The notes under the pieces were generated by a model. That model worked only from the letters and a program-made list of their open reading frames with translations, did not search any database and had not been told where the DNA came from. A stretch of DNA of 64,000 nucleotides from a virus (Duplodnaviria > Caudoviricetes). Numbering within the stretch: position 1 is the first letter of the stretch; the number at the start of each line of letters is the position of its first letter. Position numbers and translations under genes: made by a program. This document shows positions 243 to 50,048 of the stretch, piece after piece. Where the stretch lies: IMG/VR virus record IMGVR_UViG_2802429331_000008; one strand, 5' to 3'.

Positions 243-318
243 GGGGCCATAGCTCAATTGGCAGAGCACTGCCTTTGCAAGGCAGGGGTTAGGGGTTCGA
301 TTCCCCTTGGCTCCACCA
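243..318 (+). tRNA. tRNA-Ala(TGC), probable prophage integration site (attL)
   Basis: GGGGCCA/TGGCTCC acceptor stem, anticodon arm CTGCC-TTTGCAA-GGCAG, GTTCGA T-loop, encoded CCA; integrase 130 bp downstream. Confidence 0.97.
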
Positions 319-3928: not shown

Positions 3929-4466
3929 ATTTCCCGGAAACTCTTCCGGTCAAACGTGGTAGCTTCAAATTTGTAGCATTCACCCGATACGGTCGGAGTG
4001 CCACCCGCGGTACTTGTTTCGTTGGCGAGTCATGCCCTGAGAGGGGCTTCACGGGTGGGATGTGCGTCGATGCGGGAATGTCGTTACTGGTCAACAGGTT
4101 TCGTGGTGCTGTGTGCGGGGGTACGGAGGTGAGAGATTCCGAGCCCGCAGGGTTACCGGCCGACAATGGTCGCACTCCCGCTGAGGCGGCGGATCGCAGC
4201 GGCGGGAGTGCTCATCGGGAAGCGTTGCGCGAGTTGGGGGTAACCGTTTCCGCCCCGTGGGGGGACGTGGTGATCCGTGGCGGAATGGCCGAAATCGGCA
4301 CGGTCATCTGGAATCACGGGCAGGTGCGGGTGATTCCGCGAGTGGGGTTGAATGCGGAATGGGAGGCAAAGCTACTCGAGGCTGCCGAACTTGCGTGGCT
4401 GCACGGTCCGGGTGAGGGCTGGCGCTGGAACCCAACGTTGGGATGGATCGGCTGTGCCCGGGTAAA

Positions 4467-43787: not shown

Positions 43788-44102
43788 TCAGGAGGCAGCG
43801 GGCGGAGTCGGCGTAGTGGTGTCGGCAGCTGGCCCTGTCGTGACTCCGGCGGCGAGCGTGCCCGCCACCGGAGCGGGTGTGGGCTCGGCGGGTGCCGGGG
43901 ACGCGGGAGCGATCGCAGTAGCCAGGCCCTGGGCGACGTTGTGCAGTGCCGCAGCGTCGTTCTTCAGCTCGGTGAGGTCGATACCGTGCTGCTTCTCCAG
44001 GTCGGCGATCTTGGCATGCAGTGTGGTGAATCCGTCGCCGAGCGTCTTCACGTCGGTGGCGATGCCGGTGGCGAGGGCGTTGATGTCGTCTTGAACGGTC
44101 AT
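43788..44102 (-). CDS. hypothetical coiled-coil protein
   Basis: GGAG RBS, heptads, Pro/Ala tail. Confidence 0.6.
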   Translation of the reverse strand: MTVQDDINALATGIATDVKTLGDGFTTLHAKIADLEKQHGIDLTELKNDAAALHNVAQGLATAIAPASPAPAEPTPAPVAGTLAAGVTTGPAADTTTPTPPAAS

Positions 44103-44220
44103 GAGGATCTCCAGGATGTCGAGGATGAAACGGGGGACAGGGAACGGGTGGGTGGCTTCGTGCTCGGCACGCAGCCAGCGCCACAGAGTGAGGGGGGACA
44201 ACACGATTCGCTCTCCGAGG

Positions 44221-44766
44221 TCAGAGGCCGGATACGCCGGTGAGATGCCCTACCGTCCAGGTCAGTGCCATCGCAGCTGCGCCACCGGCTACGACCCGGG
44301 CTGCGGACCGGCCCACACGGGTGCCAGCCAACCGGGCCGAAACCACACCGGTCAGCGACAGCGCCGCCAGTGTGGCGACCGCCACTACGAGCGCCCGCCA
44401 GCGAGCGGACGTGGTGAGGACCGCGAGCAGCGGCAGAGCCGCGCCGCACGCGAACGACGCCGCTGACGCGGCTGCGGCCTGCCATGGCCGGGCCAGGTCG
44501 TCGGTCAGCATCCGGCCGGTGGCGATCAACTCTCGCTCGCTGTCGCGTTGCGCGGCCATCGACACGAATTCGCCGAGTCCCATCGACACCGCTCCCGCCG
44601 CGACAGCGGCGATCGCTGTGGCGAGGATCGTGGTGCGGTTATCGGTGGCGGCGGCGACGCCGGTGAGAATCCCGGCAACGGACACGATGCCGTCGTTGGC
44701 GCCGAGCACTCCGGCGCGCAATCGGTTCAGTTCGCCTGGATGTTTACGGCGGGTCAGTTGCGCCAC
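44221..44766 (-). CDS. VIT1/CCC1-family metal transporter, internally shortened
   Basis: LRAGVLGANDGIVS, AGAVSMGLGEFVS, PWQAA.ASA.SF..GA.LPL. Confidence 0.88.
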   Translation of the reverse strand: MAQLTRRKHPGELNRLRAGVLGANDGIVSVAGILTGVAAATDNRTTILATAIAAVAAGAVSMGLGEFVSMAAQRDSERELIATGRMLTDDLARPWQAAAASAASFACGAALPLLAVLTTSARWRALVVAVATLAALSLTGVVSARLAGTRVGRSAARVVAGGAAAMALTWTVGHLTGVSGL

Positions 44767-45176
44767 GAGGGTGCCTTACCGTCGGCACGGTCTTCGAGCA
44801 GGTCGATGGCGTGGTCGATAGCCTCCGACAACACTCGCACATCGATCTTGGTTGTCGCCACATCGGTACGAAGTGTCTCGGTGTTGTTGAGGGTGTGCTT
44901 GGCGACCTCGGCGGCGATCTGGTCGGCCCGGTTCTGGGCGATCAGGATGATCGACCCCTGGAGGGCGCCCAGTGTCGACAGTACGAGGTTGAGCAGGATG
45001 TACGGATAGAGATCGTGTCCGAGCCCGCTGGTGAGTATCCAGGCGCTCATGACCGCGGAGAACGCGAACACGAACACCCAGCTGCCCATGTGGTGGCGCA
45101 TGAGGTCGGCGGCGCGTTCACCGAAGCTGAGCTGGTTGCCGGTGCGGACGCCGGGGTGGTGGTGCCAATGCTTCAC
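44754..45176 (-). CDS. DUF1003-family membrane protein
   Basis: FGERAAD..MGSW.F, D.YPYILLNLVLS..ILIAQNR. Confidence 0.85.
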   Translation of the reverse strand: MKHWHHHPGVRTGNQLSFGERAADLMRHHMGSWVFVFAFSAVMSAWILTSGLGHDLYPYILLNLVLSTLGALQGSIILIAQNRADQIAAEVAKHTLNNTETLRTDVATTKIDVRVLSEAIDHAIDLLEDRADGKAPSWRN

Positions 45177-45182
45177 CCGGCC

Positions 45183-45434
45183 TCACTTGCGTTTGGCATC
45201 GCGGACACGCGCCATCTTGACCTGGTCCTGGACGGCGGTGTTGCCGTGGGCGTTGGCCCAGCGGTTGACGTGATTGAGTACCGCGCCGGGCGGCCGGTGC
45301 CCGTTGTGGCGCAGGTTGATTGCGTCTTCGGCGCTGGCTTGGTCCCAGATCGGGAACGACCCGTCGGAAAACCCGAACTTCTGGCGGGCGTCGGCGGTAG
45401 GTGCGCCGGACGCGGTGCGATTCGCACGGTCCAT
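45183..45434 (-). CDS. small protein with DGSFPI motif (DUF6582-like)
   Basis: R..F..SDGSFPIWD..A.DAI; AGGAGG RBS. Confidence 0.65.
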   Translation of the reverse strand: MDRANRTASGAPTADARQKFGFSDGSFPIWDQASAEDAINLRHNGHRPPGAVLNHVNRWANAHGNTAVQDQVKMARVRDAKRK

Positions 45435-45748: not shown

Positions 45749-45829
45749 TCAGGCACTCCCGAGCGCGGGCAGCAGGATCGGCAGCAGGTCAGCGGCCAGC
45801 TTCAGGATGTCGTCGACGATGGTGATCAC
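45749..45829 (-). CDS. 26-aa amphipathic peptide
   Basis: MITIVDDILKLAADLLPILLPALGSA; GTGA overlap with terminase stop, GAGAGGGG RBS. Confidence 0.55.
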   Translation of the reverse strand: MITIVDDILKLAADLLPILLPALGSA

Positions 45830-47160
45830 GGGGTCACCCCCTCTCGATCGTGGTTGGGCGGCCGGGGCTCGGCAGCGAAGTCGATGTAGGGTCGCCAGCG
45901 GCGTTCGGTGGTGGCGATGGCGTAGCGGGCGGCATCCAAGGAGTGGTCAGCGACCTTGATCGGTGCGTCGATGCCCTGTTCGGTGGCCTTGGAATCCCAG
46001 CTGTAGCCGGTGACTTCGGACAGGAATCCGGTGCAGCGGGTGGATACCCGCAGCTTCCCTGCGCCCAGGAGCGACGAGACGAGCCGGATCCCGTACAGCA
46101 CGTCGTTGTCGGCGGCCGCGGTCAGTACGCCGTCTTCGCGCAGTTGCACGCGGAAGGAGGCAGCGGCCGGGTCGACGACGATCGCGCCTGGTGCGCTCGC
46201 CTGCACGTGCCCGGTGGCCGGGTGCGGCGGCAAATGCTGTGCGGCAAGCCATGTCCGGATCTGGGCCGACAGCTGGCCGTCGGTGAGCCGGGCGGCGTCG
46301 CTGGATGCCTGGTATCGGTATTCGTCGATCAGGTAGAGCACGCCGTCGACGCCGACGCCGAGCAGGATCGCGCTGGTGGGGTTGGTGGTGCCGTAATCGA
46401 CGCCGACAGCGACCACGTCTTGCATGACCGGCAACCGATCCCAGGCGATCACATGCCGGGTCTCGTCCCACGAGTCGTAGACCGCGCCGTCGGCGGCCAC
46501 CCATTCGCCGAGCACGAACCGCCGATACCACAGGCCGGTGTACTCACGCTTGTACTGGTTCTTCTTCTCCTCCGACAGTGCCGGGTTGTCGTCGAGAGTG
46601 AATCGCCAGGTGCGCCAGTCCGGGAGCTGCCCGGACCGGATGCGGTCGAGATAGTCCTTCTTCAGCCAGTGATTCGGTGAGTCGGGGTTGGTGGTGCCGA
46701 ACAACTTCGAGGAGTCCAGGCTCATGCGGCCCAAGACCTGCTTGAAGAAATCCTCCTGGATGACGGTGATCTCGTCGAGGTAGGCCCCGGCGACGGTTAG
46801 GCCGCGCAGCGACTTCTCCGCTTTCACGTCGGATGCGCCGAGGACGTAGACGCGGCGGCCCAGGATGTTCGCGGTGCCCGCCCCGACGGTGTAGGAGACG
46901 CGGTAGGCGAGTGGCCCGAACAGCGCTGGGTCGCGCATGGGCTCGATGACGTTGCGGGCCAGGCTATCTCGGGTGCGGCCCACCATGATCAGCTGTCCGC
47001 CGGGCGGTGGGTCGGCGACGAACATCTGCCACCGCAGGATGGAGGAGATGGTCTTGCCGGAGCGGATCGCGCCGTCCCACACGTTCGCCCGAGCGTCGGC
47101 TTCGACGATGCTGACCGCCTGCTTACGTGAGATCGGCAGATCTTCCAGCAGACGGTTCAT
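45826..47160 (-). CDS. terL: terminase large subunit (PBSX-like)
   Basis: GAIRSGKT Walker A, AYLDE Walker B, TTNPD, GVDYGTTNP, DHSLDAARY. Confidence 0.95.
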   Translation of the reverse strand: MNRLLEDLPISRKQAVSIVEADARANVWDGAIRSGKTISSILRWQMFVADPPPGGQLIMVGRTRDSLARNVIEPMRDPALFGPLAYRVSYTVGAGTANILGRRVYVLGASDVKAEKSLRGLTVAGAYLDEITVIQEDFFKQVLGRMSLDSSKLFGTTNPDSPNHWLKKDYLDRIRSGQLPDWRTWRFTLDDNPALSEEKKNQYKREYTGLWYRRFVLGEWVAADGAVYDSWDETRHVIAWDRLPVMQDVVAVGVDYGTTNPTSAILLGVGVDGVLYLIDEYRYQASSDAARLTDGQLSAQIRTWLAAQHLPPHPATGHVQASAPGAIVVDPAAASFRVQLREDGVLTAAADNDVLYGIRLVSSLLGAGKLRVSTRCTGFLSEVTGYSWDSKATEQGIDAPIKVADHSLDAARYAIATTERRWRPYIDFAAEPRPPNHDREGVTP

Positions 47161-47717
47161 TCCGGTGTCGGTTCCCCTCGAGCGTGGTCGGCCTCGACCG
47201 CGGACTTCAGGTTGCGGGCAAGGTCGGCCAGCATGGAGCGGTCGGCGGCGACAGTCTCGTTGGCTTGGCTGTTGACCAGCTCGGTGAGGCTGCGCAGCGC
47301 CAGCGACAGGGCGGTGTAGCCGTCGCGGAGGTCCCGCAGTGGTGGCAGGGGCAGTGTGACCGGGATCAGTTCGCCGTCGCCGCGTTCGTAGGTGGTATGC
47401 GGGCTCCAGAGCCGCTCGTGCAGGTCATCGATGCGGGCGGCGATCATCTCGGCCATGTCGAGGCGGCGGCCCTTCAGTTGCTCGAGACGGGCGGCTGTCG
47501 CCTCGGCGGTGATGGCTTGGTCGAACCGCAGGCCGAGCTTATTCGCCCAGTAGGTGATGGTGCGCGGGTCGACGCCGAGTTCGGCGGCGATCTGGTTGCG
47601 GCCCTTCCCGACGGCGTGCAGGTCGATGATGCGTTGCCTGCCGGTGTCGGTGATCTTGCCGGACCCACCCCGCGCCCCGGATCTCTTCGAGCGGGCGTTT
47701 CTGGGCTTCGGCGGCAT
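47157..47717 (-). CDS. HTH terminase small subunit
   Basis: IIDLHAVGKGRNQIAAELGV HTH; ATGA-coupled to terL. Confidence 0.75.
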   Translation of the reverse strand: MPPKPRNARSKRSGARGGSGKITDTGRQRIIDLHAVGKGRNQIAAELGVDPRTITYWANKLGLRFDQAITAEATAARLEQLKGRRLDMAEMIAARIDDLHERLWSPHTTYERGDGELIPVTLPLPPLRDLRDGYTALSLALRSLTELVNSQANETVAADRSMLADLARNLKSAVEADHARGEPTPE

Positions 47718-48064
47718 CAGGTGCGGAACCTCGCCGCCCAGGCCGCAATCTTGCGGTCGGCCCGGTCACGCACCGCCGAGATGGGGTTGAGAACCGGTGC
47801 GCCGTTGGCGTCGACGATCAGCAGCCCGGTCTCGGACAGGAGTTGCGTGGACTCCTGGAACTCGGCCAATGCTTCGCAGTAGCAGGCGAATTCACCGAGG
47901 GCGGTAGGTGTCAGCTCGATCCGCGAGGCCAGCTGCTGCCATACCTGGCGGCCCAGCTCGGTCAGCCATTCAGGCGGCTCCGGTGCCCCGGTCGACGCCG
48001 CCATCGGTGTCTGTGACGCGCGGCGCAGGGGGATTACGGGGAAGTCCGCAGCGGTCATGGTCAC
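47717..48064 (-). CDS. P27-family terminase small subunit-like protein
   Basis: PEPPEWL...W, YCEA, G.PVLNP; lacks the usual LGLTP.SR end. Confidence 0.7.
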   Translation of the reverse strand: MTMTAADFPVIPLRRASQTPMAASTGAPEPPEWLTELGRQVWQQLASRIELTPTALGEFACYCEALAEFQESTQLLSETGLLIVDANGAPVLNPISAVRDRADRKIAAWAARFRT

Positions 48065-48133
48065 CTCGTCGGAGTCGATGTCTGCTGGCCATCCCTGCCG
48101 GTCCGGGCTGGCAGGGATGGCCAGCGGCGCGGA

Positions 48134-48256
48134 TTACGAGCCGCTCAGGGATGCGCGGCCCGCGGCCGCGGCCTGGCGGCTGCCGCGCAGGCCGGTGGTG
48201 GACCGGTTGACGCGGCCCAGTCGGCGACCGGCGCCGGTGAAACGGTTGGCTGCCAT
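48134..48256 (-). CDS. 40-aa Arg/Gly-rich peptide
   Basis: MAANRFTGAGRRLGRVNRSTTGLRGSRQAAAAGRASLSGS; strong AGGAAGGAGG RBS. Confidence 0.7.
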   Translation of the reverse strand: MAANRFTGAGRRLGRVNRSTTGLRGSRQAAAAGRASLSGS

Positions 48257-48287
48257 GGGGTTTCCCTCCTTCCTGGATGCATGCGAA

Positions 48288-48318
48288 CGCCCTCACCGGC
48301 GGCGGGCCGGTGAGGGCG
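48288..48318. other. perfect 13-bp hairpin upstream of the peptide gene
   Basis: CGCCCTCACCGGC-N5-GCCGGTGAGGGCG. Confidence 0.7.
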
Positions 48319-48340
48319 ATCAGAGAATGGCTCGGGTTGG

Positions 48341-48730
48341 TTACTCGCCGGAGTCGAGGTCGATGCCGAGGATGCGTGCGGCTTTTTCGCCGTCGATGTA
48401 CTTGTCGCCGAGCTGCAGCAACCCGGCTTCGCGGAGGAACCTTTCCTTTTGGGCGCGGCTGCGGAAGCAGATCGCGAACCAGTACTCGGAGTCGTTCATG
48501 GCGGCGAATTTGGCCGCCCAGTCCTTGCTGGCCCCGGATAGCCCCTTGCCGAGCGCGTTGAGCATCGCTTTCGTGTCGCCTTCGAGGCTACCGGTGGACT
48601 CGTCGCGGACGTTCGCGAGCGGATCAGGGTGCGGTTGCCTGTTCAAGGCGGCCGTGACTTCCTCGCGGGAGGCTTGCATTTTCGCTCTGCCCGCTTTCAG
48701 AGCGTTTCGAGCCTCATCGGACAGCGGCAT
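48341..48730 (-). CDS. phage protein of unknown function
   Basis: DSEYWFAICFRSRAQKERFL..GDKYIDG; overlaps the upstream enzyme gene. Confidence 0.75.
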   Translation of the reverse strand: MPLSDEARNALKAGRAKMQASREEVTAALNRQPHPDPLANVRDESTGSLEGDTKAMLNALGKGLSGASKDWAAKFAAMNDSEYWFAICFRSRAQKERFLREAGLLQLGDKYIDGEKAARILGIDLDSGE

Positions 48731-49427
48731 TCATCACCTCGGCGCGGAAGATCTCCAACTCTGCGAGTGGGAACCAGCGGAGAATTGTTTCGTAGTCGTC
48801 GGGATAGAAATCGCGGATCGGTCCGAGGTAGTCGTAGCGGATTCCGTCGAGGCTGCGGCCGAACATTTGATAATCCGGTCCCATGAGCCAGCCTTCACGC
48901 TTGATCCGAGCCCAGACTTCTTTCGTCGTCCAGTCCCATATCGGGGACTGGCGGCGGGTGCGGTTTTTCACCGGCCCCCACCGTTTGAACGCCATCATCC
49001 GCTGGGCGGAATCGGATGCTCGCACGCCATCAGCGATCCAGGTTCCTGGTGTGGCATATTCCTCCCGCATTAGAATGTCCCATTCTTCGCGGGTGGGTAC
49101 CCACAGGTTGGCGGCTTCGATGATGGCGCATCGGTCCGGTGGCTGGAATACGAAGGCGTCGAGCATCCGCCAGAACGCATCTGCTGGCAGGTCGATGATG
49201 CGGGTGTCGAACCGCTGCTCGTAGCGGTCGAGGTCGTCTCGGACGAACTTCAGTCCGGGGACGATGGACTTGTGTATCGGGATGACGTCGATGCCGTGGG
49301 CTTCGAGCTCGAACCAGAGGGCGACGGAGTCCTTGCCGCGGGAGAAGTTGAGAATCACCGGATGGTCGGCTGCGGCGAGGGTTTCCAGCATTTCGGTCGA
49401 CGACGGCATTCCGGGAATCGTGATCAC
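48714..49427 (-). CDS. PP-loop / PAPS-reductase-fold adenine nucleotide alpha hydrolase
   Basis: FSRGKDS PP-loop, DGVRASDSAQR, SPIWDW...VW; no Fe-S CC or ECGLH motif. Confidence 0.82.
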   Translation of the reverse strand: MITIPGMPSSTEMLETLAAADHPVILNFSRGKDSVALWFELEAHGIDVIPIHKSIVPGLKFVRDDLDRYEQRFDTRIIDLPADAFWRMLDAFVFQPPDRCAIIEAANLWVPTREEWDILMREEYATPGTWIADGVRASDSAQRMMAFKRWGPVKNRTRRQSPIWDWTTKEVWARIKREGWLMGPDYQMFGRSLDGIRYDYLGPIRDFYPDDYETILRWFPLAELEIFRAEVMNAAVR

Positions 49428-49485
49428 GAGGGTTCTCCGGTACCTGAATGCGTGATGCCGGCCAGTGGCGCTCTTGATCGTGGCG

Positions 49486-49855
49486 AGTTGTGCATAGGCA
49501 ATTGTCCTTCACTGTGCAGTGAAGCTTGCAGAGCCTCACTTCCCCACCATAGGGCACCTAGGGAAGGGTTAGAGTCCTGATTCCTGATGGTCCCATCTGG
49601 GTACTGAGAACCATCTACAGTACCCCCTGAATTTCCCTGTGAGCCTCTAGTTTCTTCTGAGGTTGAGGGAGTTTGGGTAAGTCATCTCAGGGGCTTGAAG
49701 ACTGATTCTGAGGGAATTTCAAGAAAGGAGTTACCAACCACTTGACAACCAAGGCTGTGTGTTGTGTGATGGTTGTGAGGGGGTTGAATACCTTCCTCAC
49801 CTTCAGCCACTTGGGTACCTGACTCTGACTGATTGCCAGGGTTGCCCCAACAATC
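49486..49855. promoter_or_regulatory. CpG-free divergent control region, with TTGACA-N17-TGTGAT promoter at 49742-49770 (+)
   Basis: About 50% GC, no CG dinucleotide; between divergent operons. Confidence 0.65.
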
Positions 49856-50048
49856 CGCCTAATGGCACGGCGTACTCATATTGTCTTCTGGGTGAATCCT
49901 TTCCCTCGGGGGATGTCGCACACAGCCTTACCCACTGCGTGGCCCCTGTATGTCCTTTGAGAACTCCACAGTGTGATTGCCAGAACAGAGGAATTCTGTT
50001 CTTCCATTCTGCGGCGAAATCCGTCGCAGTAGTTCACTGGGAGAAATC

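What the first reader, a model, noticed from the sequence alone, without database searches (positions are those of the whole stretch)
48134..49427. Candidate new system: PP-loop enzyme + partner + Arg/Gly peptide at the head of the packaging operon
Seen: a PAPS-reductase-fold enzyme (SRGKDS) lacking the Fe-S and ECGLH motifs needed for sulfate reduction. It overlaps an unknown protein (DSEYWFAICF..GDKYIDG), followed by a hairpin and a 40-aa basic peptide with a very strong RBS ending ..SLSGS, then the terminase genes. Known: this fold adenylates substrates (DndC, tRNA thiolases, QueC relatives), and DNA-modification genes often cluster by terminases. Inference: the enzyme activates and ligates the peptide, or modifies bases, on phage DNA or a packaging protein, i.e. 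a peptide-tagging or hypermodification system tied to packaging or anti-restriction.
Basis: partly seen in the sequence, partly recalled or inferred. Interest (0 to 1): 0.85.

Follow-up and report, generated by a model that had tools for sequence, protein, structure and literature searches.

The report
Phage enzyme, partner and basic peptide
A Nocardia prophage carries, just ahead of its DNA-packaging genes, a three-gene set (an ATP-using enzyme, a partner protein of no known family and a tiny, very basic peptide with a fixed tail) that recurs in hundreds of phages of unrelated bacteria and has no described function.

Summary
On the minus strand lie a 237-aa PP-loop enzyme of the PAPS-reductase fold without conserved cysteines, an overlapping 129-aa partner, a hairpin, a strong ribosome-binding site, a 40-aa Arg/Gly/Ser peptide, a second hairpin, then terS, an HTH protein and TerL.

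The new result is comparative. The partner followed the enzyme in 80 of 80 and 35 of 35 IMG/VR loci examined, and one natural enzyme-partner fusion exists. Short basic peptides (net charge +7 to +10) that begin MR and end in [R/K]-x-S-G-[S/T] follow in most loci, including low-GC ones. 117 of 120 such tails in 636 kb lie within 1.5 kb after the partner. Seven Nocardia orthologues show purifying selection. None of 25 evaluable loci with a related TerL but no enzyme had the peptide.

Neither partner nor peptide is in Pfam, PHROGs, NCBIfam or PADLOC, and nine literature searches found no description. A role in sulphate reduction is rejected.

My best reading, at about 0.35, is that enzyme and partner activate or ligate the peptide tail in connection with packaged DNA. 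The main rivals are DNA modification with an independent DNA-binding peptide, and IbrAB-like control of late genes.

The parts
49428..49976 (.). Intergenic region of about 550 bp with lower GC, between the divergent early-side genes and the enzyme gene. It is the presumed promoter or regulatory region of the operon.
   Evidence: GC falls to 0.50-0.54 against about 0.65-0.70 around it. No ORF with high GC3 lies here. No sigma-70-like site was found. The promoter role is inferred only.
48714..49427 (-). PP-loop enzyme of the PAPS-reductase fold, 237 aa, with no conserved cysteine; first gene of the operon.
   Evidence: PHROG 2302 E 5e-23; Pfam PF01507 16.9 bits, below the cut-off. F28 S29 G31 K32 D33, G134 R136 A137 D139 S140 R143 and others are invariant in 29 relatives. 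No Cys column is conserved. Weak PP-loop match to TtuA, E 0.04.
48341..48730 (-). Partner protein, 129 aa, acidic, of a family not held in the libraries; its start overlaps the enzyme gene by 17 nt.
   Evidence: No Pfam, NCBIfam or PADLOC hit and only a weak PHROG hit, E 0.034. The profile finds 1341 cluster representatives at E<=1e-3. It follows the enzyme in 80 of 80 and 35 of 35 loci. A natural enzyme-partner fusion, P0002, exists.
48285..48321 (-). Hairpin with a 13-bp G+C-rich stem between partner and peptide genes.
   Evidence: strand folding gives -38.1 kcal/mol, z -3.57, with 1 of 200 shuffles as good. Relatives carry different inverted repeats at the same place, some followed by a T-run; this was seen in the printed flanks and not folded.
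48264..48273 (-). Ribosome-binding site GGAAGGAGGG, 7 nt before the peptide's ATG.
   Evidence: Read from the sequence. A GGAGG-type site lies at the same distance in 7 Nocardia relatives.
48134..48256 (-). 40-aa basic peptide (Arg/Gly/Ala/Ser-rich, ending SLSGS), a member of a conserved peptide family with an MR... start and a ...[R/K]-x-S-G-[S/T] end.
   Evidence: Orthologues occur in all 7 related Nocardia loci. Purifying selection. Family alignment A4. The tail motif is concentrated after the partner gene, 117 of 120 occurrences. Net charge +7 to +10. The exact sequence is on record as a 40-aa protein with no name shown.
48084..48125 (-). Second hairpin, with a stem of about 16 bp, between the peptide gene and terS.
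   Evidence: strand folding gives -38.2 kcal/mol, z -5.05, with 0 of 200 shuffles as good. Relatives have unrelated inverted repeats at the same place (printed flanks).
47717..48064 (-). Terminase small subunit, P27 / Terminase_4 type, 115 aa.
   Evidence: Pfam PF05119 E 9.8e-10; PHROG 83 E 2.7e-15.
47157..47717 (-). HTH DNA-binding protein, 186 aa, between terS and TerL.
   Evidence: PHROG 5536 E 6.1e-36 and weak HTH Pfam hits. The same gene lies between terS and TerL in the Gordonia phages.
45826..47160 (-). Terminase large subunit, 444 aa.
   Evidence: Pfam Terminase_6N E 1.1e-12; PHROG 2 E 4.1e-45.

Best explanation
This is a conserved, undescribed three-part phage module placed at the head of the DNA-packaging genes. 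(1) The enzyme belongs to the PP-loop (adenine-nucleotide alpha-hydrolase) superfamily on a PAPS-reductase-like scaffold. It keeps the pyrophosphate-binding loop but has no catalytic or Fe-S cysteines, so it most likely adenylates a substrate with ATP and does not reduce sulphonucleotides or insert sulphur. (2) The acidic partner is obligatory, translationally coupled, occasionally fused to the enzyme, and works with it as one unit. (3) One or two very basic, protamine-like peptides of 25-50 aa have a conserved MR... start and a conserved ...[R/K]-x-S-G-[S/T] end, are made in quantity (strong RBS, flanking hairpins) and bind nucleic acid through their charge. I propose that the enzyme-partner pair recognises the conserved tail and uses ATP to activate, process or ligate it, so that a modified or attached basic peptide accompanies the phage DNA at packaging. 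Shown here: the genes, their co-conservation, selection on the peptide, the intact PP-loop and the lack of cysteines. Inferred: that the peptide is the enzyme's substrate, adenylation, DNA binding, and the link to packaging.
For: The partner follows the enzyme in 80 of 80 loci and 35 of 35 loci, with overlapping start and stop. One natural fusion of 403 aa exists.

Peptides with the tail [ST]SG[ST]-stop: 117 of 120 occurrences among 24,678 stop codons in 635,812 nt lie on the enzyme's strand within 1.5 kb after the partner, in 60 of 80 loci. Variant basic peptides were seen in 12 of the other 20 loci. In the second sample 25 of 35 loci have such a peptide, including GC 0.36-0.42 loci and often two tandem copies, so it is not an artefact of high GC.

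In many loci the peptide starts 4-23 nt after the partner's stop, whereas in L026 terS begins about 350 nt further on.

Purifying selection: 68/67/347 differences by codon position, and 310 synonymous against 92 nonsynonymous codon differences.

In 121 Nocardia genomes, 9 of 9 enzyme loci have the peptide 0.5-1.7 kb downstream.

0 of 25 evaluable TerL-related loci without the enzyme have the peptide.

The module sits beside different terS families (Terminase_4, Terminase_7) and different TerL families.

The PP-loop residues F-S-x-G-K-D are invariant in 29 sequences and no Cys is conserved.

The peptide has net charge +7 to +10, while enzyme and partner are acidic.
Against: There is no direct evidence that the peptide is the enzyme's substrate. 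Structure and complex prediction could not be run.

In Cutibacterium phage CA1NRNZ and in L164 the peptide lies next to the terminase genes on the strand opposite to enzyme and partner. This fits a terminase-side function equally well.

Five of the first 80 loci (L023, L024, L048, L052, L056) showed no convincing small peptide, and L034, L082 and L091 are ambiguous or truncated. L023 has a 176-aa basic protein in that slot instead.

In some members 3-6 residues follow the SGS motif (CA1NRNZ, BigBern1, L035, L025, L148), so a free C-terminal carboxylate at the Ser may not be essential.

No partner-peptide fusion was seen among 150 partner representatives.

Related loci are not independent, so the counts overstate the support.
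Confidence: 0.35

Rival explanations
1. Enzyme and partner act on nucleic acid, not on the peptide. In this reading they carry out an ATP-dependent (adenylation-type) modification of phage DNA bases, backbone or ends around the time of packaging. The basic peptide is then a separate, co-selected DNA-binding factor, either a charge neutraliser or a packaging-initiation accessory of the terminase.
For: The module is adjacent to terminase genes of several unrelated families. The peptide stays with terS when the enzyme is on the other strand. The Lys/Ala/Pro-rich versions of the peptide in low-GC loci look like non-specific DNA binders. In Lactobacillus phages a ParB_N nuclease-like protein stands in the partner's place, and its C-terminal part weakly matches the partner profile (E 5.5e-4 with Z=270 for JNU_P7, 0.044 for LR1). 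The Atlas lists a ParB-like nuclease cluster as a structural neighbour of the partner (TM 0.35). From established knowledge: PP-loop enzymes such as DndC, TilS and tRNA thiolases act on nucleic acids.
Against: No conserved Cys means no Dnd-like sulphur chemistry. There are no Dnd, Ssp or BREX partners, and the PADLOC BrxP hit is only E 0.031. This reading does not explain why a tail motif conserved across phyla tracks the enzyme, nor why none of 25 enzyme-less relatives has the peptide. The ParB links are weak.
Confidence: 0.3
2. The module is regulatory. In this reading enzyme and partner resemble the IbrA/IbrB pair (PAPS-reductase-like plus ParB-like), which activates prophage genes in E. 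coli. The Arg-rich peptide and the two hairpins around its gene would control read-through or translation into the terminase and structural operon.
For: The module is the first transcription unit of the late or structural operon, after a 550-bp intergenic region. Stable hairpins flank the peptide gene here and, with other sequences, in relatives, some with T-runs. IbrA/IbrB are reported as activators of prophage eib genes; this comes from passages of PMC6008420 citing Sandt et al. 2002, and the original was not held. Arg-rich peptides that bind RNA hairpins are known from lambda N (recalled).
Against: The partner has no ParB_N domain and the enzyme has no DUF3440 domain. In many loci the peptide follows the partner within 4-23 nt with no hairpin. 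A purely regulatory leader would not be expected to keep a tail motif, a high positive charge and tandem paralogues from Actinobacteria to Pasteurellaceae-like phages. An IbrAB-like Firmicute-type locus (L130) upstream of a terminase has no such peptide.
Confidence: 0.15
3. The enzyme is an auxiliary metabolic gene, a true PAPS/APS reductase that boosts host sulphur assimilation, as phage 'PAPS reductase' annotations imply. Partner and peptide would then be unrelated.
For: Database names say so: 'phosphoadenosine phosphosulfate reductase' in PHROG 2302 and in phage records. A preprint on B. longum prophages discusses this role for members that appear to be of the same family; I read passages of 10.64898/2026.02.18.706556, and the L081-type peptide is a B. 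longum hypothetical protein.
Against: The enzyme has no ECGLH catalytic Cys, no Fe-S cysteines and no conserved Cys at all, whereas the host CysH has both motifs. It scores below the Pfam cut-off, and only 5 of 29 relatives reach E<=0.01. The profile aligns to host CysH with 40% probability over the core only. The host already has 5 canonical PF01507 genes. The obligatory partner and the position beside the terminase are left unexplained.
Confidence: 0.02
4. The peptide ORF is not a functional product. It would be a chance Arg/Gly/Ala-rich frame in G+C-rich DNA, or a leader whose translation alone matters.
For: Such frames are common in 70% G+C DNA. One off-frame 46-aa basic ORF ending RYSGS overlaps a TerL start in L109. 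No RNA holder was listed for this stretch, which is no evidence either way.
Against: Differences concentrate in the third codon position, and synonymous changes outnumber nonsynonymous 310 to 92. The RBS is conserved. Peptides with the same termini are present in GC 0.36-0.42 loci. The tail motif is restricted to one position.
Confidence: 0.03

Closest known systems
IbrA/IbrB-type pairs (PAPS-reductase-like protein plus ParB-like protein) of prophages and genomic islands
   Same: Both have a PAPS-reductase-fold PP-loop protein with an obligatory small partner. Both are frequent in temperate phages. An IbrAB-like Firmicute version also stands upstream of a terminase (L130). The partner domain has weak links to the C-terminal part of ParB-like nucleases.
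   Different: There is no ParB_N domain in the partner and no DUF3440 domain in the enzyme. The PP-loop reads S-x-G-K-D, with R, C, L or M at x, whereas the IbrAB-like L130 enzyme has SGGKDS. The basic peptide is absent from the IbrAB-like locus examined. The function of IbrAB itself is known only as a gene-activation phenotype.
DndC / SspD / BrxP (PAPS-reductase-like ATP pyrophosphatases of DNA phosphorothioation)
   Same: They share the fold superfamily, an intact PP-loop and a context related to DNA.
   Different: These enzymes need conserved cysteines or an Fe-S cluster and a cysteine desulfurase partner; passages of PMC12839542 describe DndC's Cys dyad and BrxP's Cys-rich region. Here no Cys is conserved, no such neighbours are present, and PADLOC BrxP scores only E 0.031.
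Assimilatory PAPS/APS reductase CysH, and CysD
   Same: A distant similarity of the core fold: hhalign gives 40% probability to host CysH over residues 31-185 and 56% to host CysD over 33 residues.
   Different: ECGLH and CC..CxxC are absent. The PP-loop is intact here, where the host CysH has SNMQDAV. The score is below the Pfam cut-off.
RiPP pathways with a PP-loop enzyme (lasso-peptide cyclase with its B protein and RRE)
   Same: A small gene-encoded peptide stands next to an ATP-dependent PP-loop enzyme and a small accessory protein. That lasso cyclases are PP-loop enzymes is recalled knowledge.
   Different: The enzyme is of the PAPS-reductase type, not the asparagine-synthetase type. The peptides have almost no acidic residue to serve as acceptor (E 0.4%, D 0% in A4). 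The conserved part is the extreme C-terminus and the variable part is upstream, the reverse of leader-core logic. The context is phage packaging, not export or immunity.
Pup-PafA (and ubiquitin-like) tagging
   Same: A small, disordered, gene-encoded modifier with a conserved C-terminal motif, plus an ATP-dependent activating enzyme (recalled knowledge).
   Different: The ligase fold is unrelated (glutamine-synthetase-like or E1-like, against PP-loop). No GG or GGQ end is present. No target is known. This is an analogy only.
Protamine-like DNA-condensing peptides of eukaryotic viruses (baculovirus P6.9, adenovirus Mu)
   Same: Short Arg/Ser-rich peptides of extreme positive charge encoded by a dsDNA virus. 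The baculovirus papers appeared only in a search listing; the properties of P6.9 and Mu are recalled.
   Different: No such peptide is described for tailed phages in the searches made. No packaging of the peptide has been shown here. The dedicated enzyme-partner pair has no counterpart.

Membership tests
PAPS/APS reductase (CysH) | Match to Pfam PAPS_reduct (PF01507) above the gathering score | tested here: not met
   16.9 bits against a cut-off of 22.5, E 0.0067, covering only residues 130-179. 5 of 29 relatives reach E<=0.01, best 4.4e-5. The PF01507 scan of the whole genome at E<=0.01 lists 5 other genes and not this one.
PAPS/APS reductase (CysH) | C-terminal catalytic cysteine in the ECGLH motif | tested here: not met
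   The window protein has a single Cys (C100), present in 13 of 29 relatives, and there is no Cys in the C-terminal third. The host CysH ends ...KTECGLHQP.
PAPS/APS reductase (CysH) | Fe-S cluster cysteines (CC...CxxC) of the APS-reductase type | tested here: not met
   No Cys column is conserved. The host CysH has ECC and GCAPC.
PP-loop ATP pyrophosphatase (adenine nucleotide alpha hydrolase) superfamily | PP-loop motif S-x-G-x-D-S after the first beta strand | tested here: met
   FSRGKDS at residues 28-34. F28, S29, G31, K32 and D33 are invariant in 29 sequences and in 10 more distant ones. The motif aligns to the SGGKDS of TtuA.
PP-loop ATP pyrophosphatase (adenine nucleotide alpha hydrolase) superfamily | Significant similarity to a solved or curated member over the whole domain | tested here: inconclusive
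   The PDB profile search gives TtuA E 0.04 and GMP synthetase E 0.1. The best NCBIfam hit is PRK13795, E 9.8e-6, far below its cut-off. No structure could be predicted.
PP-loop ATP pyrophosphatase (adenine nucleotide alpha hydrolase) superfamily | ATP to AMP plus PPi chemistry (substrate adenylation) | not testable with these tools
   This needs a biochemical assay.
DndC / SspD / BrxP DNA phosphorothioation | Conserved cysteines or Fe-S, and co-encoded cysteine desulfurase and Dnd/Ssp/BREX partners | tested here: not met
   No Cys is conserved. PADLOC BrxP scores E 0.031 over 47 residues. The neighbours are the partner, the peptide and the terminases.
IbrA/IbrB-type pair | ParB_N domain partner and a DUF3440 C-terminal domain on the enzyme | tested here: not met
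   The partner has no Pfam hit at E<=0.1, and none of 29 partners matches ParB_N at E<=1. The enzyme is 237 aa with no second domain. Only weak links to the C-terminus of ParB-like nucleases exist.
RiPP (lasso-type) biosynthetic cluster | Co-encoded precursor peptide | tested here: met
   A conserved peptide gene lies next to the enzyme and partner.
RiPP (lasso-type) biosynthetic cluster | Asp/Glu acceptor in the core, Asn-synthetase-type cyclase, leader protease or RRE | tested here: not met
   The peptides hold 0.4% E and no D. The enzyme is of the PAPS-reductase type. No protease or PqqD-like hit was found in the partner. An RRE-like fold of the partner could not be examined without a structure.
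Phage terminase small subunit module (context) | terS and TerL immediately downstream | tested here: met
   Terminase_4 and Terminase_6N in the window. terS and TerL follow in the sampled relatives.

The most novel reading that the evidence does not exclude
The enzyme-partner pair uses adenylation chemistry to join the protamine-like peptide covalently to the phage genome at packaging. One possible route is to activate a DNA 5'-phosphate, as the CysD and FMN-adenylyltransferase relatives activate an oxyanion, and pass it to a Ser/Thr hydroxyl of the conserved S-G-S tail. Another is to activate the peptide's C-terminus for attack by a base amine. The result would be a peptide-capped or peptide-decorated virion DNA, which would neutralise charge in the head and shield the entering DNA from host exonucleases and restriction. 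This would be a kind of DNA-peptide conjugate not known from tailed phages.
Probability: 0.1. Interest if true: 0.95.

Novelty: categorically new. Interest (0 to 1): 0.8.

Why it matters
Phage genes labelled 'PAPS reductase' are routinely counted as sulphur-metabolism auxiliary genes in virome studies, for example in B. longum prophages. For this family that reading is untenable.

The enzyme instead belongs to a three-gene set with a large partner family that is not catalogued (1341 representatives at 50% identity) and a peptide family that gene callers often miss. The peptide was unannotated in VanLee, BigBern1 and Pm86.

The set spans Actinobacteria, Pasteurellaceae-like hosts and bifidobacteria, and always lies beside the packaging genes.

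If the peptide is an enzyme substrate or a packaged DNA counter-ion, this would add a new component to the otherwise well-studied head-filling machinery of tailed phages. It could also be a new peptide or DNA modification chemistry based on a PP-loop enzyme.

Cultured Gordonia phages carry the module, so it can be tested directly.

Tried and rejected
Sulphate-reduction AMG: rejected. No catalytic or Fe-S Cys is present, the score is below the Pfam cut-off, and the host has its own CysH and CysD.

Dnd/BREX-like phosphorothioation: rejected. No Cys is conserved, no partners are present, and PADLOC gives E 0.031.

GC-artefact ORF: rejected.

The peptide as a general feature of this terminase lineage: not supported. 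0 of 25 evaluable enzyme-less TerL relatives have it. One off-frame basic ORF ending RYSGS overlaps the TerL start in L109 and was judged spurious. A second TerL-based sample returned mostly contigs that already carry the enzyme, so it added little.

Partner-peptide fusions: none among 150 partner representatives.

Long fusions of the enzyme: none at E<=1e-5 among 8000 candidates, which is weak evidence.

Long forms of the partner: 3 hits, one of them the enzyme-partner fusion.

Profile searches of the PDB: nothing for the partner; only PP-loop-level hits for the enzyme.

Family libraries for partner and peptide: nothing in Pfam, NCBIfam, PADLOC or PHROGs, apart from one unannotated PHROG for 1 of 29 partners.

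E. coli complete genomes: no DNA match to two enterobacterial-GC loci.

tblastn with a 32-aa peptide against the phage collection: only its own record, because low complexity is masked.

Peptide profile against 5.8 billion proteins: 10 unnamed hits.

RNA evidence: no RNA holder was listed for the stretch; read laying was not used.

Rfam: only a tRNA elsewhere in the window.

Literature: nine searches. None returned a paper describing the enzyme-partner-peptide set. One search was badly chosen (iBRB hits). Supplementary files were not consulted and could hold gene tables that list these ORFs.

Three weak peptide-profile hits in Nocardia genomes without the enzyme (G107, G119, G023; E 1e-3 to 1e-2) were not inspected.

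Of the 263 and 295 IMG/VR relatives found, the tools kept only the best 80 of each scan. Of the second 80, I analysed the first 35 listed, L133-L167. The two samples share some contigs.
Full report
**What is in the window**

Between 45826 and 49427 the minus strand carries one tightly packed gene row:
- a 237-aa protein (48714-49427);
- a 129-aa protein whose ATG lies 17 nt inside the first gene (48341-48730);
- an 84-nt spacer;
- a 40-aa ORF (48134-48256);
- a 69-nt spacer;
- terS (47717-48064), an HTH protein (47157-47717) and TerL (45826-47160).

The terminase assignments are firm: Terminase_4 at E 9.8e-10, Terminase_6N at E 1.1e-12 and PHROG 2 at E 4.1e-45.

The first protein matches PHROG 2302 ('phosphoadenosine phosphosulfate reductase') at E 5e-23. 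It matches Pfam PAPS_reduct at only 16.9 bits, below the cut-off of 22.5.

The spacer before the small ORF folds into a 13-bp hairpin (-38.1 kcal/mol, z -3.57) and is followed by GGAAGGAGGG, 7 nt before the ATG. The spacer after the ORF folds into a hairpin of about 16 bp (-38.2 kcal/mol, z -5.05).

Upstream of the enzyme lies a 550-bp stretch of lower GC (0.50-0.54), followed by divergent genes. Downstream of TerL, after four inserted genes, come an SPP1-type portal, a minor capsid protein and a P22-type coat protein. The row is therefore the head of the structural operon of a prophage.

The host is a Nocardia: the closest genomic relatives of the enzyme are all Nocardia records.

**The enzyme is not a sulphonucleotide reductase**

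In an alignment of 29 family members the PP-loop residues F28, S29, G31, K32 and D33 are invariant, as is the DGVRAxDSxxR block.

No cysteine column is conserved. The best column has Cys in 13 of 29 sequences, and the window protein has a single Cys.

The host's own CysH, fetched from the same genome, carries the CC..CxxC cysteines and the terminal ECGLH, and has a degenerate loop (SNMQDAV) where the phage protein has SRGKDS.

The family profile aligns to host CysH with 40% probability over the core only, and to host CysD over 33 residues. Only 5 of 29 members reach E<=0.01 against PF01507. The PDB profile search gives nothing better than the PP-loop of TtuA, E 0.04. PADLOC BrxP scores E 0.031.

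An intact pyrophosphate loop without any redox or sulphur-carrying cysteine points to plain ATP-dependent adenylation. That is an inference from what is established about the superfamily.

**The partner is obligatory and belongs to a large family that is not catalogued**

It has no hit in Pfam, NCBIfam or PADLOC, and only noise in PHROGs.

A profile of 29 partners finds 1341 cluster representatives at E<=1e-3 among 1.84 billion proteins, of which 875 are at E<=1e-10. Nearly all are stand-alone proteins of 108-272 aa with one or two copies of the domain.

Among IMG/VR loci found through the enzyme, a partner gene directly follows the enzyme in 80 of 80 loci and in 35 of 35 loci of a second sample centred on low-GC members. 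The same holds in Gordonia phages, Bifidobacterium phage BigBern1, Cutibacterium phage CA1NRNZ and Pasteurella phage Pm86.

One 403-aa protein from a gut MAG is a natural fusion of the enzyme with a two-repeat partner.

Conserved polar positions in the partner are D80, S81, W84, R92, D109, K110, Y111 and D113. They suggest a binding or catalytic site and not a mere scaffold.

In two Lactobacillus phages the enzyme is followed by a basic 140-aa protein with a Ser/Gly-rich end and then by a ParB_N nuclease-like protein. The C-terminal part of that protein weakly matches the partner profile, at E 5.5e-4 (Z=270) for JNU_P7 and 0.044 for LR1. The ESM Atlas lists a viral 'ParB-like nuclease' cluster among the structural neighbours of the partner, at TM 0.35. 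These are leads only.

**The peptide is real and conserved far beyond Nocardia**

All seven related Nocardia loci carry a 37-38-aa orthologue with the same RBS.

Across seven of these orthologues, differences fall 68/67/347 on codon positions 1/2/3, and 310 differing codons are synonymous against 92 nonsynonymous. These are pairwise counts over kin and are not independent.

Gordonia phage Aleemily has an annotated 48-aa counterpart. VanLee, BigBern1 and Pm86 have unannotated ones, and Pm86 (GC about 0.38) has two in tandem. CA1NRNZ has an annotated 35-aa one.

The family is highly basic: 24.5% Arg, pI 12, and net charge +7 to +10 in about 36 residues. Enzyme and partner are acidic.

The peptides start with M-R, or M-x-N-R in Nocardia, and typically end in [R/K]-x-S-G-[S/T].

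Independent of any ORF call, the tail [ST]SG[ST]-stop occurs 120 times among 24,678 stop codons on both strands of the 80 loci (635,812 nt). 117 of these lie on the enzyme's strand within 1.5 kb after the partner, in 60 of the 80 loci.

The remaining 20 loci break down as follows:
- 12 have variant basic peptides: L022, L025, L028, L035, L050, L051, L053, L054, L057, L059, L069 and L083.
- 5 have none that is convincing: L023, L024, L048, L052 and L056. L023 has a 176-aa basic protein in the slot upstream of terS instead.
- 3 are ambiguous or truncated: L034, L082 and L091.

In the second sample 25 of 35 loci have a motif-bearing peptide after the partner. Several of the others have Lys/Ala/Pro-rich basic peptides of about 55-70 aa in the same place.

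A second type of peptide, with a different N-terminal half (YVQGEFDF) and the same tail, often follows the first in the bifidobacterial group. The exact sequence of one such peptide is a 'hypothetical protein' of B. longum seen on 219 contigs.

**Does the peptide go with the enzyme or with the terminase?**

Evidence for the enzyme:
- In 121 sampled Nocardia genomes the enzyme occurs at 9 places in 8 genomes, and each has a peptide hit 0.5-1.7 kb downstream on the same strand.
- The one additional strong peptide hit lies in a decayed prophage of the window's own genome. That remnant keeps a partner fragment, the peptide, terS, HTH, a split TerL and a portal, but has lost the enzyme.
- Of 36 IMG/VR loci found through the window's TerL, 31 lack the enzyme. 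25 of those have at least 1.2 kb upstream of TerL, and none shows the peptide.
- In many loci the peptide starts 4-23 nt after the partner's stop, whereas in L026 terS begins about 350 nt further on.
- The module sits beside terS of two Pfam families and TerL of different families. It is therefore not a lineage-specific part of one terminase.

Evidence for the terminase:
- In CA1NRNZ and L164 the enzyme and partner are on one strand, and the peptide sits on the other strand immediately upstream of the terminase genes.

Both readings agree that all four components stay within about 2 kb of each other.

**Mechanism**

Shown here:
- a three-gene set under selection;
- an intact ATP-pyrophosphatase loop with no conserved cysteines;
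- an obligatory partner that is sometimes fused to the enzyme;
- a protamine-like peptide with two conserved ends;
- signals of high expression, namely a strong RBS and flanking hairpins whose sequences differ between relatives (seen in printed flanks; folded only for the window);
- a position at the head of the packaging genes.

Inferred: the enzyme-partner pair recognises the conserved tail and adenylates, processes or ligates it, and the product accompanies the DNA. I hold this at about 0.35.

The main rival, at about 0.30, is that enzyme and partner act on DNA and the peptide is an independent DNA-binding accessory. A regulatory reading modelled on IbrAB and on Arg-rich RNA-binding peptides stands at about 0.15. 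The sulphur-AMG and non-coding readings are nearly excluded.

The tail is followed by 3-6 further residues in a few members. This argues against a strict need for a free C-terminal carboxylate at the Ser and keeps Ser/Thr hydroxyl chemistry open.

**Comparison with known systems and novelty**

The enzyme is a member of the PP-loop superfamily by its motif. It fails the defining tests for CysH, DndC/BrxP and IbrA (see the membership table). The partner and the peptide belong to no family held in the libraries searched.

Nine literature searches found no description of the set. The one paper that discusses what appears to be the same enzyme family, a preprint on B. longum prophages of which I read passages, treats it as a sulphur-metabolism gene while noting that the role is puzzling.

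Only 11 of 50,697 cultured phage records carry the enzyme, whereas IMG/VR holds several hundred relatives (263 and 295 in two overlapping scans). Those examined often come from genome-derived viral contigs, so the module appears to be mainly a feature of temperate phages.

I rate the architecture as categorically new. The caveat is that its function is unknown and it may turn out to be a variant of peptide tagging, RiPP-like processing or DNA modification.

**Limits**

All counts come from related, non-independent loci and from the best-scoring subsets that the tools return. The peptide profile and the tail motif were derived from the same family whose distribution they then measure, although the positional test does not depend on ORF calling. 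No expression or proteomic evidence was available. Supplementary files of papers were closed.

Noticed in passing
window 43788-45434 (minus strand): Four genes are inserted between TerL and the portal gene. They include a DUF1003 membrane protein (44754-45176, E 1.2e-16) and a VIT1-family protein (44221-44766, E 6.5e-37), a putative iron or manganese transporter. This looks like a cargo ('moron') insertion inside the packaging-to-head operon.
   Followed up: partly
G000:C3:1845500-1856500 (locus L212), outside the window: This is a second, decayed copy of the same kind of prophage in the same genome. It has a partner fragment (E 4.6e-18), an intact 38-aa peptide, terS, HTH, a TerL split into 291-aa and 144-aa ORFs, and a portal. 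No enzyme gene is present.
   Followed up: partly
window 49428-49976: A 550-bp intergenic stretch of GC 0.50-0.54 lies in a genome of about 0.65-0.70 GC, between the divergent early-side genes and the enzyme. There is no Rfam family and no sigma-70-like site. It may hold the late promoter or a regulatory site.
   Followed up: no
L015 4166-4591 and L016 4169-4965 (Lactobacillus phages LR1 and JNU_P7): In place of partner and peptide, these phages encode basic proteins of 123-141 aa that end in Ser/Gly-rich tails (..KGSSGKSSG..GSTGSRGG..GSTGSKGG), followed by a ParB_N nuclease-like protein. This may be a fused or enlarged version of the same system.
   Followed up: partly
L161 1923-2084, L163 1539-1745, L166 4217-4384, L160 (ORF ending at 4315): In low-GC relatives the peptide slot holds Lys/Ala/Pro-rich, histone-H1-like peptides of 38-68 aa. 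Some still end in ..SSGS and others in ..ARASAT or ..LSSSTA.
   Followed up: no
L130 520-2851 (IMG/VR locus related through TerL): A different PAPS-reductase-like protein of the SGGKDS type stands with two ParB-like proteins upstream of a terminase. This is an IbrAB-like arrangement, and it has no small basic peptide.
   Followed up: partly
window 243-318: A tRNA-Ala (TGC) gene lies at the far end of the window. It is a possible attachment-site landmark, and its relation to the prophage borders was not examined.
   Followed up: no
L026 1499-2848, L037 1693-3099, L064 2095-3225: DUF932-domain proteins recur 1-2.5 kb upstream of the enzyme in Streptomyces-like relatives (E down to 4.7e-50). Prim-Pol-like proteins precede the enzyme in the bifidobacterial group.
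   Followed up: no
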